A stretch of DNA of 38,872 nucleotides, taken from a virus. Taxonomy: Duplodnaviria; Caudoviricetes. Below the pieces are notes generated by a model that was not told the DNA's origin, did no database searches, and saw nothing but the letters and a program-made list of their open reading frames with translations. The position numbers and the translations under genes are program-made. The first letter of the stretch is position 1, and every line of letters begins with the position of its first letter. The stretch is taken from positions 1-38,872 of the IMG/VR virus record IMGVR_UViG_3300047272_000160; one strand, 5' to 3'. This document shows positions 16,016 through 35,134 of this stretch, in pieces.

Positions 16016-16869
16016 TGGACGAGACAGCATACGACATCATCAGAAAAACTTTGCAGTATTACGGTTTGACTGATACGGACTTTCTCAAAGAAGTAGAGAC
16101 ACTGTTCAACACCAAGGTCATCAGTGACAGGTCCACGGTGGATGACATCGGAGTTGCCATGAAGGACAGCCCAGCGTTCGCCAAGCGTTTCCCTGCCAAT
16201 GCGGAACTAGCCGCTGCTGGCAAGCAACAGTATTCCGTATCACAGTACCTGCGGATGGAAGCCGATTATAAGTCACGCCTCCAAGCAGGCGGTATGCCCG
16301 TAGGATTCTATGACCAGCCACAGGACTTTCAAAAGTTAATTGCCAACGATGTGTCCCCTGACGAACTGTCAGCCCGCATCCAACTTGGATATCAAGCAGT
16401 CAAGAACGCACCTAAAGAAGTTGTTGACCAGTTCAAGAATCTCTACGGGGTATCCGAGGGTGACCTTGCTGCTTACTTCATTGACCCTGAAGTAGCCAAG
16501 CCAACCTTTGACAAGTACGAAGCAGAGCGTCAAGCCCGTTCCGCACTCATCGCATCACAAGCCGCAACCCAGGCAAACATGCAACTCAACCGTCAACAGG
16601 CTGAGGAACTTGCCCGTGCAGGAGTCCAAGGTGCAGAAGCACAAAAGGGATTCGCAGAGATTGGCGCAACACAAGAACTGTTCAACCCGATGATGGCAGG
16701 AGAGACCGCCATTACGCAACAAGAACAAATTGCTGGCACATTCCAAACCAACGCAGCCGCCGCCCAACGCATCGCTACACGCAGAGCAAAGCGCAGGGCA
16801 GAGTTTGAAGCAGGTGGCAACCTTGGTGCAACAACAACTGGTGTGGTGGGTCTTCGCACAGAAGCCTAA
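16015..16869 (+). CDS. Hypothetical virion protein
   Basis: 284 aa, Gln/Ala-rich C-terminus, TAATG coupling. Confidence 0.7.
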   Translation: MDETAYDIIRKTLQYYGLTDTDFLKEVETLFNTKVISDRSTVDDIGVAMKDSPAFAKRFPANAELAAAGKQQYSVSQYLRMEADYKSRLQAGGMPVGFYDQPQDFQKLIANDVSPDELSARIQLGYQAVKNAPKEVVDQFKNLYGVSEGDLAAYFIDPEVAKPTFDKYEAERQARSALIASQAATQANMQLNRQQAEELARAGVQGAEAQKGFAEIGATQELFNPMMAGETAITQQEQIAGTFQTNAAAAQRIATRRAKRRAEFEAGGNLGATTTGVVGLRTEA

Positions 16870-16874
16870 CCTTG

Positions 16875-16883
16875 TGTTATAGT
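16875..16883 (+). promoter_or_regulatory. Extended -10 promoter for the scaffold-capsid operon
   Basis: TG-T-TATAGT immediately upstream of the structured leader. Confidence 0.65.
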
Positions 16884-16890
16884 TCACACT

Positions 16891-17002
16891 GTAAGCCGAT
16901 GGCTGAAACCTACGGGAAATCCCCCGATACCGTAGCGTCACATGGGGTGTAACAATTAGCAGCCACCACAACCCTCCAGTGTGGTGCGGGCTTTAAGGAG
17001 AG
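16891..17002 (+). ncRNA. Candidate structured cis-regulatory RNA (scaffold mRNA leader)
   Basis: Nested stems AAGCC/GGCUU, UGGCUG/CAGCCA, CUACGG/CCGUAG, GUCACA/UGUAAC, CCACA/UGUGG; loop complementarities CCCCG/UGGGG and CUCC/GGAG (the RBS). Confidence 0.55.
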
Positions 17003-17008
17003 TGCCAT

Positions 17009-17473
17009 ATGTCAGACTTCGCAGACGATACCTACGAGGATGATTACGAACAGCAAGCATCTGAAACGAACCCAGTTCGTGCCAGGATGAAGCAACTGGA
17101 AAAAGCAGTGCGTGAGAAAGACGCACTTCTTGCCAAGTATGCCGAGACTGAAAAGAAGATGACCTTCATGGAAGCAGGTATTAATACCAGTGACCCGAAG
17201 TTCAAATACTTTGTCAAGGGATATGACGGTGAGATGACTCCAGAAGCCATCACGCAGGCTGCCGTAGAAGCACAGTTGATTACACCCCAAGCATCCCCAG
17301 CGGATGTTGACAAAGCAGCATGGCAGCAAACCAACAGGATTGCAGCAGGAGCCGAGACAGCATCAGCAGGACCTTCTTGGGTCAAGCGAATCAGAGATGC
17401 GTCATCCGCAGATGAATTATCAGCGATTTTTGCAGAGGCACAAGCCCAAGGTGTTGACCTTGGGGAAATGTAA
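17009..17473 (+). CDS. Capsid scaffolding protein
   Basis: Acidic N-terminus, coiled coil, immediately upstream of the major capsid gene. Confidence 0.75.
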   Translation: MSDFADDTYEDDYEQQASETNPVRARMKQLEKAVREKDALLAKYAETEKKMTFMEAGINTSDPKFKYFVKGYDGEMTPEAITQAAVEAQLITPQASPADVDKAAWQQTNRIAAGAETASAGPSWVKRIRDASSADELSAIFAEAQAQGVDLGEM

Positions 17474-17501
17474 ACCTCAAACCTATTAAGGAAAAAATCC
17501 A

Positions 17502-18482
17502 ATGGCTGATTACTACGCAGCAGAAACAGGCACCTCCAACCTTTCGGTTGACCAGGTTGCTTTTGAGAAGTTGGCATACTTTGCCCTTCGTCCAGAAATG
17601 TACTTTGACCAGTTCGCAGATGTCCAAGCGACAAACGCAACGAACCCAGGTGCATCCGTCAAGTTCACAATCTTCGCAGACCTTGCAGCAGCAACCACTG
17701 CCCTTGGTGAAGCAGAAGATGTGACCCCAGTTGCAATGAGCGACAGCCAGGTCACCGTTACTCTTAACGAGTACGGTAACGCAACTGTCACCACAGCGAA
17801 GTTGCGTGCATCTTCGTTCCTTCCTGTAGACCCAGTAGCCGCTAACGCTGTTGGTTACAACGCTGGTTTGTCCATTGACACCATCGCTCGTAATGTTCTT
17901 GAGGCTGGCACGAATGTCATCTACGCAACGGGTGGTTCAACAGACCCAACAGCCCGTAACGAAATCTCCACCGATGACCTCCTCACGGCAAACGATGTTC
18001 GCAAGGCTGTTGCACAGTTGCGCAAGGCAAATGTCCCAACCATCAATGGTTCGTATGTCGGTTTCATCCACCCCGATGTTTCCTACGACTTCCGTTCAGC
18101 AACCGATGCGTCAGCATGGCGCACCCCAGCCAACTATGTAAATCCAGAAGGCATTTACAACGGCGAAATCGGAATGTTTGAAGGAGTCCGTTTCATGGAA
18201 TCCCCTCGTGCCCCTCTGTTCGCAGATGCAGGTAACGGTTCGGGTTCAACAGGAACCATTGACGCATACGGTACGCTCATCATGGGTCGCCAGGCACTTG
18301 CCAAGGCAATCTCCCTTGGTGGCGAGTACGGCGCACAGCCAACCATCGTGTACGGCACAGTGACCGACCTCCTCCAGCGTTTCCGTCCAGTGGGTTGGAA
18401 GCACTTTGTTGGTTACGGTGTGTTCCGTCAGGAAGCATTGCGCCGCATTGAATCCGCTTCAAGCATCGGCACAAACGCCTAA
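17502..18482 (+). CDS. Major capsid protein (N4-gp56-like, HK97 fold)
   Basis: 326 aa; VTVTLNEYGNA, YVGFIHPDV, GEIGMFEGVRF, DLLQRFRPVGW motifs; followed by a terminator. Confidence 0.9.
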   Translation: MADYYAAETGTSNLSVDQVAFEKLAYFALRPEMYFDQFADVQATNATNPGASVKFTIFADLAAATTALGEAEDVTPVAMSDSQVTVTLNEYGNATVTTAKLRASSFLPVDPVAANAVGYNAGLSIDTIARNVLEAGTNVIYATGGSTDPTARNEISTDDLLTANDVRKAVAQLRKANVPTINGSYVGFIHPDVSYDFRSATDASAWRTPANYVNPEGIYNGEIGMFEGVRFMESPRAPLFADAGNGSGSTGTIDAYGTLIMGRQALAKAISLGGEYGAQPTIVYGTVTDLLQRFRPVGWKHFVGYGVFRQEALRRIESASSIGTNA

Positions 18483-20948: not shown

Positions 20949-21989
20949 ATGAAAATTGCTGTATACACAATCGCCAAGAACGAAGAACAATTTGTTCAAC
21001 GCTGGGCTGAATCGTGTAAGGAAGCCGACTATCGGGTAATCCTTGATACAGGCTCAACAGACAAAACACTGCATGAGATAATCCTTAACGACACAATCAT
21101 GTGGGAGCAAAAGGAGTTCACCCCGTGGCGTTTTGACAACGCTCGCAACCACGCACTTCACCTTCTACCTGATGACATAGATATGTGCATCTCCCTAGAC
21201 ATGGACGAGGTGCTACAACCAGGATGGCGAGAAGCATTAGAAGCCATACCAGTAGGTACTACCCGACCACGATACAAATATGTTTGGTCATGGAACCCTG
21301 ACGGTTCCGAAGGTCTTGTCTATGGTGGAGACAAAATCCACACCCGTCATGGCTACCGATGGAAACACCCAGTCCATGAGGTACTTAAGTCAGATGGTCC
21401 AGAAGTCCAGAACTGGACCAACGGTTTAGTAATCCATCACCATCCTGACCCCAACAAATCAAGGGCGCAATACCTACCACTGTTGAAGATGGCTGTAGAC
21501 GAAGACCCCCGTGATGACCGTAACCAGTTCTACCTAGCCCGTGAGTATTACTTCAACGGGGAATTAGGACTAGCCCAATACCACTTCTCCGAACATCTCA
21601 AGTTGTCACAGTGGCACCCTGAGCGAGCAGCCTCTCACCGCTACATGGCGAAGATGCGACCCGAAGCCCGTGAACACCACCTCTACCTAGCCATCGCAGA
21701 AGACCCACTACGCCGAGAGTCATGGGCTGAACTAGCCAAGCACTACTACGCCAAAGAAGATTGGGACAGATGCCTCTATGCCAGCAAGCAAGGACTGCTC
21801 ATCTACGAGAAGCCACTTGACTATCTATGTGAGGCTGAGGCTTGGGGTCCACTACTCCACGACCTAGCCGCCATCTCACTGCACCATCTTGGTGACTCGG
21901 ATGAAGCGTTCTTTCAGGGTTCCATCGCCCTGTCCCTTGCCCCTACTGACTTAAGGCTTCAAGCGAACCTAGACCATTATCGGCTATGA
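20949..21989 (+). CDS. Family 2 glycosyltransferase with C-terminal TPR-like repeats
   Basis: YTIAKNEE, LDTGSTDKT, FDNARN, LDMDE (DxD), PVHE; helical FYLAREY repeats. Confidence 0.9.
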   Translation: MKIAVYTIAKNEEQFVQRWAESCKEADYRVILDTGSTDKTLHEIILNDTIMWEQKEFTPWRFDNARNHALHLLPDDIDMCISLDMDEVLQPGWREALEAIPVGTTRPRYKYVWSWNPDGSEGLVYGGDKIHTRHGYRWKHPVHEVLKSDGPEVQNWTNGLVIHHHPDPNKSRAQYLPLLKMAVDEDPRDDRNQFYLAREYYFNGELGLAQYHFSEHLKLSQWHPERAASHRYMAKMRPEAREHHLYLAIAEDPLRRESWAELAKHYYAKEDWDRCLYASKQGLLIYEKPLDYLCEAEAWGPLLHDLAAISLHHLGDSDEAFFQGSIALSLAPTDLRLQANLDHYRL

Positions 21990-32286: not shown

Positions 32287-32459
32287 TGAAAGAGTTTTAC
32301 CTAAAGACAGAAATCCCCGTTGAGTGGGGAGAAACAATCAAGGATGAGATTGTCAAAGACATGAAGAAGAAACTTCCTGACAACTCCACTATCAGATACG
32401 AGGGTTACATGGCGATGGGTAGCAACGACTTTGTAATCATCTACACGGTAGGTGAATGA
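32286..32459 (+). CDS. Hypothetical protein (57 aa)
   Basis: Manual translation MKEFYLKTEIPVEWG...; coupled at both ends. Confidence 0.65.
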   Translation: MKEFYLKTEIPVEWGETIKDEIVKDMKKKLPDNSTIRYEGYMAMGSNDFVIIYTVGE

Positions 32460-32872
32460 TGGAGGTCGGAGGCTACAACCCACAGTTTGACTTCAAGGCT
32501 GACCTAGCGTATGGTCATGAAGGCGAACAGAACCTCATTGACTTCTTCAATGCGTTCAACAACGGAGCAGTGGAGGTTAAGGCTGACCGCTACCGCAACG
32601 GACGCATGGCAGTAGAGACAGAGCAACGCCCGAAGGGTGGAGAGTGGAAGCCATCAGGAATAAATGTGACTAAGGCAGAGTGGTGGGCATACAGATTTGC
32701 ACCTGACTCCTACGCACTTGTCTCGGTCGCACGGTTAAAGAACTTCCTGCGTATCAACTACTCATGGTTAGAGAAGCGAGACTTCGCTAGCAACTCTGAC
32801 AACCCAGCACGGGGTTTCTTGTTGCAACCCAGCCATGTGCTGGAGTTACAGACCAACGAAGACTACGACTGA
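32459..32872 (+). CDS. PD-(D/E)xK-like nuclease-fold phage protein
   Basis: DLAYGHEGE, VEVKADR, SGINVTKAEWW. Confidence 0.65.
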   Translation: MEVGGYNPQFDFKADLAYGHEGEQNLIDFFNAFNNGAVEVKADRYRNGRMAVETEQRPKGGEWKPSGINVTKAEWWAYRFAPDSYALVSVARLKNFLRINYSWLEKRDFASNSDNPARGFLLQPSHVLELQTNEDYD

Positions 32873-33922: not shown

Positions 33923-34319
33923 TCAAATCACAGTCAATGGCAAGGTCGGGCAAGAGCCTGAACTGCGCTACTCCGCAGGCGGAATGGCAATCCTCACCTT
34001 CTCTGTCGCAGACACATACGGCAAGGACGACAAGAAGAAGACAACATGGCACAACATCACGGTGTTCTCCAAGTTGGCAGAGAATGTTGCTAGCACCATC
34101 TCTAAGGGTTCAACAGTCATCGTTGTTGGACGCTACGAGCAGGACGAGTTCACCAAGAAAGACGGCACCAAGGGCAAGAGCCTGAAGTTAATCGCTGATG
34201 AGGTCGGCGTGTCCTGTCGCTGGGACATTTGGGTCAAGGACTCAACCGAGCAGACAATGGCACAGATTGGAAAGGTCTTCCCATCCATGTCGCCAGTCAC
34301 TGAAGACGAGTTCTTCTAA
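33915..34319 (+). CDS. ssb: Single-stranded DNA-binding protein
   Basis: GKVGQEPELRY, FSVA, TTWHNITVF, KGSTVIVVGR, acidic-aromatic tail EDEFF. Confidence 0.92.
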   Translation: MSNQITVNGKVGQEPELRYSAGGMAILTFSVADTYGKDDKKKTTWHNITVFSKLAENVASTISKGSTVIVVGRYEQDEFTKKDGTKGKSLKLIADEVGVSCRWDIWVKDSTEQTMAQIGKVFPSMSPVTEDEFF

Positions 34320-35134
34320 TGAGCGAATACCCGCTGAGGGTCTTGTCGTTGGGGGCAGGGGTGCAATCAACAACCCTGCTCCTAATGATGTTGCATGGGG
34401 AAATCCCAATGGCAGACCATGTAATCTTCGCTGATACAGGATGGGAACCTAAGAAGGTGTACGAACACCTTGAATGGCTTAAGACCTTGATGGACAAAGC
34501 AAACATCCCTTTCCATATCGTGAGCAAAGGAAACATCCGAGAGGATTTCCTGACCGAAGGAAAGCGTTACGCCTCCATGCCATTACACATGGTCGGAGAA
34601 GATGGCAAGAAAGGTATGGTTCGCCGTCAATGCACAGCCGAATACAAACTTGCCCCACTCATGAAGAAGCAACGAGAACTAGCAGGTCTTAAGTCAGGGC
34701 AACGCTGCAAAGAACACCGCATTACCACCATCATTGGTATCTCATGGGATGAAGTGCAGCGCATCAAAGACCCACAGTTCTCATGGATTGAACACGAGTA
34801 CCCACTTGTAGACCGCAAGATATCCCGACAGGATTGTCTTGACTGGTGCGCTGATAAAGGCTACGCCCTCCCGCCACGGTCGGCATGTATCGGTTGCCCA
34901 TTCAAGAACGCTGATGAATGGCGTGCCTTAAGTGAGATGCCTGAAGAATGGGCTGACGCAGTGGAGTTTGACGAGGCGTTACGCACAGTGCCACACCTCA
35001 TTGAACGCTACCGTGGTACCCCATACCTACACTCAAGCCGTGTTGAACTACGCAATGTGGACTTAAGAACGGACGCAGAACGAGGGATTGTTTCCTTGTT
35101 TGACCAAGAGTGCGAAGGAATGTGCGGGCTATGA
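34319..35134 (+). CDS. PP-loop (adenine nucleotide alpha-hydrolase; PAPS reductase/DndC-like) enzyme
   Basis: SLGAGVQS, FADTGWE, RQCT..YK, IGISWDE, YPL, SACIGCPF, C-terminal CEGMC. Confidence 0.8.
   Translation: MSEYPLRVLSLGAGVQSTTLLLMMLHGEIPMADHVIFADTGWEPKKVYEHLEWLKTLMDKANIPFHIVSKGNIREDFLTEGKRYASMPLHMVGEDGKKGMVRRQCTAEYKLAPLMKKQRELAGLKSGQRCKEHRITTIIGISWDEVQRIKDPQFSWIEHEYPLVDRKISRQDCLDWCADKGYALPPRSACIGCPFKNADEWRALSEMPEEWADAVEFDEALRTVPHLIERYRGTPYLHSSRVELRNVDLRTDAERGIVSLFDQECEGMCGL

What the first reader, a model, noticed from the sequence alone, without database searches (positions are those of the whole stretch)
16875..17011. Multi-stem RNA leader with kissing loops and an RBS-sequestering pseudoknot before the scaffold-capsid operon
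Seen: an extended -10 places the start near 16890. P0 AAGCC(16893)/GGCUU(16989) encloses P1 UGGCUG(16900)/CAGCCA(16960). P1 closes a three-way junction with P2 CUACGG/CCGUAG (loop contains CCCCG) and P3 GUCACA/UGUAAC (loop UGGGG), whose loops are complementary. P4 CCACA/UGUGG has loop ACCCUCCAG, able to pair with the RBS GGAG at 16997. Known: P22 scaffold protein autoregulates its own translation. Inference: an undescribed riboswitch-like or protein-responsive switch for head assembly.
Basis: partly seen in the sequence, partly recalled or inferred. Interest (0 to 1): 0.7.

Follow-up and report, generated by a model that had tools for sequence, protein, structure and literature searches.

The report
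Twin-pseudoknot leader of phage scaffold gene
The gap in front of this phage's head-building genes holds a conserved folded RNA made of two similar knot-shaped modules, the second of which pairs with the ribosome-binding site across very distant related phages, and it likely lets spare scaffold protein switch off its own production.

Summary
Every named motif is at its stated coordinate. In 44 related leaders, P0, P1 and P3 are only 49-59% paired, so the three-way junction and kissing loops fail. Covariation supports a 5' hairpin plus two H-type pseudoknots with one shared core: a C-G pair, a one-base bulge, a stem, and a loop pairing downstream. The second pseudoknot covers the Shine-Dalgarno (SD). 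On a sequence-only alignment of 88 distinct protein-selected leaders, its four pairs hold in 88, 88, 88 and 86, with compensatory swaps. Seven of eight loop changes on the protein tree are compensated. The downstream gene is a probable scaffold, followed by the capsid gene in 103 of 103 loci. A parallel element occurs in cultured Streptomyces Beephvirinae. Rfam has no match. Best mechanism (inferred, 0.55): free scaffold binds and locks the SD pseudoknot. No binding is shown. The scan reported similar scaffold leaders on other DNA before. Verdict: new variant of a known kind; interest 0.64.

The parts
16875..16883 (+). Extended -10 promoter element TG-n-TATAGT; predicted start near 16890
   Evidence: Sequence. 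TGnTAnnnT upstream in 26 of 44 representatives; several relatives also have TTGACA at -35. Not called by the scan, which needs a -35. Start not measured.
16894..16904 (+).
   Evidence: Pairs 37-47 and 38-46 of A2 are paired in 42 of 42, with 5 and 4 pair types. Appears absent in L345.
16908..16938 (+).
   Evidence: 6 of 6 pairs change on both sides. Module score >=25 in 59 of 61 leaders vs 93 of 620 shuffles.
16922..16947 (+). Pseudoknot 1, stem 2: CCCC 16922-16925 x GGGG 16944-16947
   Evidence: 94.9% paired but nearly invariant in this clade. Covaries across clades: UGACC/GGUCA, UGGCC/GGCUA, UGCC/GGCA, UCCC/GGGA.
16948..16958 (+). Conserved UGNRA-like motif after the G-run, then an A/C-rich linker of variable length
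   Evidence: UGUAA in 52 and UGAGA in 17 of 91; linker 5-19 nt.
16959..16991 (+).
   Evidence: Basal helix 100% paired, inner pair CG/UA/AU/GC; upper stem 98.1% paired, 6 of 7 pairs covary. Core found in 101 of 111 leaders vs 125 of 555 shuffles.
16973..16977 (+). Loop: unpaired C followed by the anti-SD strand CUCC (16974-16977)
   Evidence: C before the paired strand in 95 of 100; that column is invariant in A7.
16995..17006 (+). Shine-Dalgarno AAGGAG (GGAG 16997-17000 closes pseudoknot 2) and clade-conserved spacer AGUGCC
   Evidence: Four pairs held in 88, 88, 88 and 86 of 88; UA 38/AU 30/CG 20 at one position.
17009..17473 (+). Probable capsid scaffolding protein, 154 aa: acidic, predicted long helix 22-55 and a small conserved domain 53-92
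   Evidence: phrog_7813, unknown function. Atlas clusters named 'Scaffolding protein family' at 0.97; nearest Pfam PF06810 at 0.89, on 43% of that cluster. pI 4.5; model. No Pfam or Foldseek proof.
17502..18482 (+). Major capsid protein (PF13252)
   Evidence: E 2.8e-46; phrog_1357 major head protein.

Best explanation
The leader is a conserved mRNA structure of a 5' hairpin and two related H-type pseudoknots, the second pairing with the Shine-Dalgarno, and it likely works as a translational operator through which free scaffold protein would repress its own synthesis. Shown by covariation: the helices, both pseudoknots, plus-strand RNA polarity and a fixed place before this gene family. Inferred: the 4-bp SD helix is marginal alone, so it needs a stabiliser. 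Scaffold not bound in procapsids would recognise the shared core (C-G, one-base bulge, C-G) and lock pseudoknot 2, blocking 30S binding. Capsid protein, which has its own RBS, would titrate scaffold away and relieve repression. The 5' hairpin and pseudoknot 1 are predicted to protect the 5' end and/or give a second binding site. They are dispensable in some lineages.
For: Loop-SD pairing covaries even where the SD departs from consensus (CACC/GGUG, CUCG/CGAG, UACC/GGUA, UCCC/GGGA). The loop 4-mer finds its exact complement in 108 of 109 leaders; the permutation mean is 40, maximum 57. The core is repeated twice per leader in two clades. Sequence conservation outside the core is low, as expected of a protein operator rather than an aptamer (general knowledge). 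Context is exclusive in the test made: model R1 hit 65 of 100 pattern loci, all among the 66 with a scaffold homolog and none of the 34 without. Capsid follows in 103 of 103. G.U 41 vs A.C 3 indicates plus-strand RNA. The acidic protein keeps basic and aromatic residues family-wide: position 49 is K/R in 104 of 104; 24, 28, 70 and 82 in 83-89%; F53, F68 and Y72 in 96-99%; residues 21-72 have pI 9.7. [quoted passage not shown] T4 gp32 represses through a leader pseudoknot (PMC3014915, passage). Candidate RNAs recur before GP20/DUF4355 scaffold-type genes (PMC10690425, passage and table rows).
Against: No protein-RNA binding or expression data. The conserved basic residues could serve coat binding instead. 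Scaffold identity rests on position, shape and an automatic name. No RNA-binding fold was matched (best Z 4.6, generic helices). One leader (L499) has an uncompensated loop change; L576 and L586 show no recognisable loop. Pseudoknot 1 of Beephvirinae lacks the bulge. The module pattern alone is common: 15 hits in the window. R1 does not detect the Beephvirinae leaders, so that homology rests on topology, synteny and a weak protein match (E 4.4e-5). In the window's clade only 3-4 nt separate the basal helix from the SD in 42 of 50. That helix and the SD pseudoknot may therefore exclude each other, and binding could switch ON rather than OFF.
Confidence: 0.55

Rival explanations
1. Ligand-independent tuner: the SD pseudoknot constitutively dampens scaffold translation to set the scaffold:capsid ratio (possibly temperature- or Mg-dependent), and the 5' modules only stabilise the mRNA.
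For: Needs only what is shown. The structure begins at the predicted +1, or directly after the tRNA-Val 3' end in Beephvirinae, as a 5'-end protector would.
Against: Does not explain why a bulged C-G core and an unpaired loop C are kept at the same places in both modules and across distant clades, unless these are purely tertiary contacts.
Confidence: 0.2
2. Small-molecule or ion riboswitch in tandem form: a ligand binds the module and closes the SD pseudoknot, as in pseudoknot riboswitches such as preQ1-I, SAM-II/V and NAD-II (family features recalled).
For: Topology (loop x SD pseudoknot, tandem modules). Clade-invariant unpaired bases such as AGC/YGG and UGNRA; AGC/UGG is also kept in Beephvirinae.
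Against: No Rfam hit in the window or 20 distant loci. The unpaired bases differ between clades. Only one gene context was seen, with no metabolic logic.
Confidence: 0.1
3. The operator is read by another protein (major capsid protein, another late phage protein or a host factor), not by scaffold.
For: The capsid gene is as tightly linked (103 of 103). An earlier scan note on another phage group proposed a shared head-gene operator (e1-8349704; unchecked).
Against: The element occludes the scaffold RBS only. One R1 copy per genome. The known precedent is the scaffold itself.
Confidence: 0.1
4. A non-translational role: a self-cleaving ribozyme, or an RNA that pairs between molecules and nucleates head assembly (phi29 pRNA-like; recalled).
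For: Multiple pseudoknots; loop-tail complementarity could form in trans.
Against: No ribozyme family hit. The 5' modules are lost or replaced in several lineages. The pairing partner tracks the SD position 6-11 nt before the start.
Confidence: 0.05

Closest known systems
T4/T2/RB69 gene 32 translational operator (PMC3014915, passages)
   Same: Phage mRNA leader with an H-type pseudoknot; autogenous repression by the encoded protein when it exceeds its primary ligand.
   Different: There the pseudoknot lies 67 nt upstream and nucleates cooperative coating of an unstructured A/U-rich RBS. Here the SD itself closes the pseudoknot, the module is doubled, and the gene is a probable scaffold, not an SSB.
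P22 scaffolding protein (gp8) translational autoregulation (bioRxiv 2022.12.13.520362, passage; Wyckoff and Casjens 1985, reference title only)
   Same: Scaffold gene directly before the coat gene; N-terminal region implicated in autoregulation.
   Different: No homology between the proteins was shown or tested directly. I could not read the P22 operator description, so the RNAs were not compared.
GP20-a (RF02991), GP20-b (RF03003) and the candidate RNAs upstream of GP20/DUF4355 genes (PMC10690425)
   Same: Covarying candidate cis-regulatory RNAs directly before scaffold-type phage genes; function untested.
   Different: No Rfam match here, and this protein family has no Pfam hit. The paper's alignments could not be read, so identity with one of its unnamed candidates is not excluded.
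H-type pseudoknot riboswitches that bury the SD (preQ1-I/II/III, SAM-II/V, NAD-II; features recalled)
   Same: A loop pairs with the SD; tandem arrangements exist.
   Different: No covariance-model hit; no family-wide ligand-pocket bases or A-rich loop 3; not before metabolic genes.

Membership tests
Any Rfam 15 family (riboswitches, ribozymes, GP20-a/b, Mu-gpT-DE) | Covariance-model score at gathering threshold | tested here: not met
   0 hits in the window; 0 at E<=10 for 16820-17060; only tRNAs in 20 distant loci.
Autogenous translational operator (gene 32 / P22 gp8 kind) | Conserved RNA structure in cis at the RBS of the regulated gene | tested here: met
Autogenous translational operator (gene 32 / P22 gp8 kind) | Confined to one gene context | tested here: met
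   65 of 65 R1 hits lie in scaffold loci, 0 of 34 in others. Limited to 100 of 120 loci of one capped scan of viral contigs.
Autogenous translational operator (gene 32 / P22 gp8 kind) | The gene product binds the RNA and represses translation | not testable with these tools
   No protein-RNA tool; conserved basic residues are only suggestive.
T4 gene 32 operator specifically | Upstream pseudoknot plus unstructured A/U-rich RBS before an SSB gene | tested here: not met
   The SD is paired and the gene is not an SSB.
Metabolite riboswitch | Family-wide conserved unpaired ligand-pocket nucleotides | tested here: inconclusive
   3 invariant columns in 91 rows; clade-level invariants exist.
Metabolite riboswitch | Ligand-dependent structural change | not testable with these tools
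   Needs in-line probing.
   50.8% and 48.8% paired.
Self-cleaving ribozyme | Site-specific self-cleavage | not testable with these tools
   No Rfam ribozyme hit; only contigs were available.
Phage scaffolding protein (ORF 17009-17473) | Acidic helical protein encoded directly before the major capsid gene | tested here: met
Phage scaffolding protein (ORF 17009-17473) | Significant profile or fold match to a characterised scaffold | tested here: inconclusive
   No Pfam hit; Atlas name and PF06810 lead at 0.89; no significant Foldseek or VIA match.

The most novel reading that the evidence does not exclude
A phage-specific tandem-pseudoknot riboswitch class: the repeated module binds a host metabolite or ion, and the second copy buries the SD, so head assembly is timed to the host's state. 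It would be a riboswitch class native to phages that controls virion morphogenesis, testable in cultured Streptomyces phages.
Probability: 0.1. Interest if true: 0.9.

Novelty: new variant of a known kind. Interest (0 to 1): 0.64.

Why it matters
Scaffold autoregulation is reported for P22, but I found no RNA operator structure for it in the papers I could search. This leader gives a defined candidate operator with exact compensatory pairs to mutate. The scaffold family is large (1,312 clusters at 50% identity, E<=0.001). Cultured members with tractable hosts exist (Streptomyces phages Kumquat, FlowerPower, Treat), so how a phage balances scaffold against coat protein becomes directly testable. 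The repeated pseudoknot module is also a candidate new RNA fold or regulatory part, and the family is missing from Rfam.

Tried and rejected
Single-sequence folding gave no signal. My idea of a fifth Y-G pair extending the SD helix was rejected family-wide (43 of 85 paired). One search used wrong pseudoknot columns and is superseded. mis-anchored the basal helix and is superseded. Searches crashed part-way and were completed. Pseudoknot-1 module hits in Beephvirinae (10 of 18) and the CACC clade (11 of 30) are not counted, because 252 of 620 shuffles also hit at the loose threshold. The window's scaffold had no match among INPHARED phages. The Bacillus phage Pony leader showed no such element by eye, and R1 gave nothing significant there. 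The genome scan with one distant protein gave 2 MAG loci, both with the 3' module by eye; this is not a real test of bacterial contexts. RNA runs: only contigs of relatives at small share, so no start, strand or expression could be read. Scaffold dimer prediction gave no verdict. Fold searches found nothing significant. A resemblance of AGC/YGG to the SRP helix-8 loop is recalled and untested. Ten paper searches listed no description of this element. The Minerva preprint passages do not mention capsid leaders. Unreadable supplements that may bear on novelty: alignments and figures of PMC10690425 and all of PMC5737381. Sequence look-ups in earlier scan findings gave nothing.

Full report
Setting. 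The window is a complete 38,872-base phage record with direct terminal repeats. The finding fills the 139-base gap between a 284-aa gene (stop 16869) and a 154-aa ORF at 17009, which is followed by the major capsid gene (PF13252, E 2.8e-46). The ORF is a probable scaffold: acidic (pI 4.5), predicted helical, nearest to Atlas clusters automatically named scaffolding protein, and followed by a capsid homolog in 103 of 103 loci with enough downstream DNA. No profile or fold search proves this.

Observation check. All motifs are at the stated coordinates. The sequence folds no better than shuffles (z 0.01), and Rfam has no match. I collected relatives by protein and by DNA pattern. Of 252 loci with a start, 241 had 150 bases upstream, giving 92 distinct leaders and 45 representatives. 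L362 was left out as too divergent, leaving 44 (18 protein-selected, 26 pattern-selected and so biased for the 3' motif).

Revised structure. Covariation supports (89.4% of cells paired, at most 55.6% when slid): a hairpin at 16894-16904; a variable stem at 16909-16937 whose loop CCCC pairs with GGGG at 16944-16947 (H-type pseudoknot 1); and a long stem at 16959-16991 whose loop CUCC pairs with GGAG at 16997-17000 (pseudoknot 2). The 3' domain is present in 50 of 50 distinct protein-selected leaders. G.U outnumbers A.C 41 to 3, which points to plus-strand RNA. An extended -10 precedes the element in 26 of 44, placing the hairpin near the predicted +1. The start was not measured, and no plus-strand terminator was found upstream, so read-through is possible.

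The SD pseudoknot. In the near clade both pseudoknot helices are almost invariant, which is uninformative, so I went to distant relatives chosen only by the protein motif (155 of 160 loci parsed, 75 kept after removing near-copies). On a sequence-only alignment of 91 leaders (88 distinct; Beephvirinae, L576 and L586 not included) the four loop-SD pairs hold in 88, 88, 88 and 86 of 88. One position shows UA 38, AU 30 and CG 20; another shows CG 70 and UA 17. Including Beephvirinae, the loop 4-mer has its exact complement in the RBS region in 108 of 109 (permutation mean 40, maximum 57). The nine loop types need eight changes on a quick protein tree, and seven are compensated; L499 is the exception. 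The list of loop types was drawn up after seeing the data, and kin share types, so the independent evidence is those seven events. Several move the SD off consensus (GGUG, CGAG, GGUA), which is hard to explain except by pairing.

One module twice. Both pseudoknots begin with a C-G pair, a single bulged base on the 3' strand and a further pair: 16909-16937 with bulge 16936, and 16963-16988 with bulge 16987. The core was found for pseudoknot 2 in 101 of 111 leaders, against 125 of 555 shuffles; eight of the ten misses show it by eye. For pseudoknot 1 in the window's clade and the UCCC clade, 59 of 61 score 25 or more against 93 of 620 shuffles, and its second helix covaries across clades. The 5' part is modular. 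It is absent in eight leaders, where a predicted -10 lies 9-22 bases before the 3' module. A bulged hairpin replaces it in 24 of 30 CACC-clade leaders. The pattern alone is not rare (15 hits in the window); its weight comes from conservation of position.

Cultured relatives. Streptomyces Beephvirinae (capsid about 38-42% identical) carry, between tRNA-Val and the gene before capsid, a pseudoknot and then a stem with the same AGC/UGG loop and a loop pairing with UAGG. This is 98.3% paired in 20 leaders, with 4 of 5 pairs of the first pseudoknot helix covarying; the SD helix is invariant within the group. Their protein matches the window's family weakly (E 4.4e-5 over 118 columns), model R1 does not find them, and their first pseudoknot lacks the bulge. 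Homology is likely but not proven.

Mechanism. Shown: structure, SD pairing, polarity and gene linkage (65 R1 hits in 100 pattern loci, all among the 66 with a scaffold homolog). Inferred: a 4-bp helix (duplex -3.7 kcal/mol) needs a stabiliser. A bulged core repeated in tandem with otherwise free sequence fits a protein site, and the acidic protein keeps basic and aromatic residues family-wide. With the P22 precedent (bioRxiv 2022.12.13.520362, passage) and the T4 gene 32 precedent (PMC3014915, passages), I give 0.55 to repression by free scaffold. The rivals are a ligand-free tuner and stabiliser (0.2), a riboswitch (0.1), another protein (0.1), and a ribozyme or assembly RNA (0.05). One point is unresolved: the basal 2-bp helix is fully paired and covaries, yet leaves only 3-4 bases before the SD in 42 of 50. 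By simple helix geometry (inference) that is too short to reach the loop without a bend, so two states may compete and the direction of control is not settled.

Known and novel. It would work like an autogenous phage operator but is not a member of any Rfam family. Candidate RNAs before GP20 and DUF4355 genes are published without function (PMC10690425: passages and one table read; alignments unreadable). Ten searches listed no description of this element, but unread supplements could hold it as an unnamed candidate. Earlier notes of this scan describe similar pseudoknotted scaffold leaders on other DNA. I saw them after forming my reading, did not check their DNA, and do not count them as support. 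Verdict: a real, strongly covarying, probably undescribed RNA family; new variant of a known kind; interest 0.64.

Noticed in passing
window 17474-17501; same place in L001-L078: The short gap between scaffold stop and capsid start keeps a pyrimidine run (CCCUC or CCUC) before the AAGGA RBS in most near relatives. Distant clades have hairpins here instead. A second small control site is possible.
   Followed up: no
window 17001-17006: The spacer between SD and start is conserved within clades (AGUGCC, UGGGUC, AGUGAC) with no pairing partner found in the column scan.
   Followed up: partly
L440, L481, L521, L526 and others, about 60-200 bases before the scaffold start: The UCCC clade has longer leaders: a GGCC bulged hairpin, the pseudoknot-1 module and further hairpins.
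   Followed up: partly
L161:1855-1969; L408 after 1385: In Beephvirinae the first pseudoknot starts immediately at the 3' end of the last tRNA of a large tRNA cluster, so tRNA processing would create the mRNA 5' end.
   Followed up: partly
L362:1405-1542, L576, L586: Divergent scaffold relatives whose leaders lack or alter the core.
   Followed up: no
L599 and L600: Scaffold relatives with the 3' module lie on contigs filed in MAGs labelled Dehalococcoidia and Isosphaeraceae; binning of phage contigs is not excluded, so these are no host evidence.
   Followed up: partly
window 34319-35134 and 20949-21989: A phosphoadenosine phosphosulfate reductase-like gene and a glycosyltransferase-like gene (PHROGs).
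   Followed up: no
window 32803-32845: A strong imperfect hairpin inside the ORF 32456-32872 was the top score of the module scan; probably chance.
   Followed up: no
L286:1222-2090: In Streptomyces phage JXY1 the capsid gene is annotated as two CDS; sequencing error or frameshift not examined.
   Followed up: no
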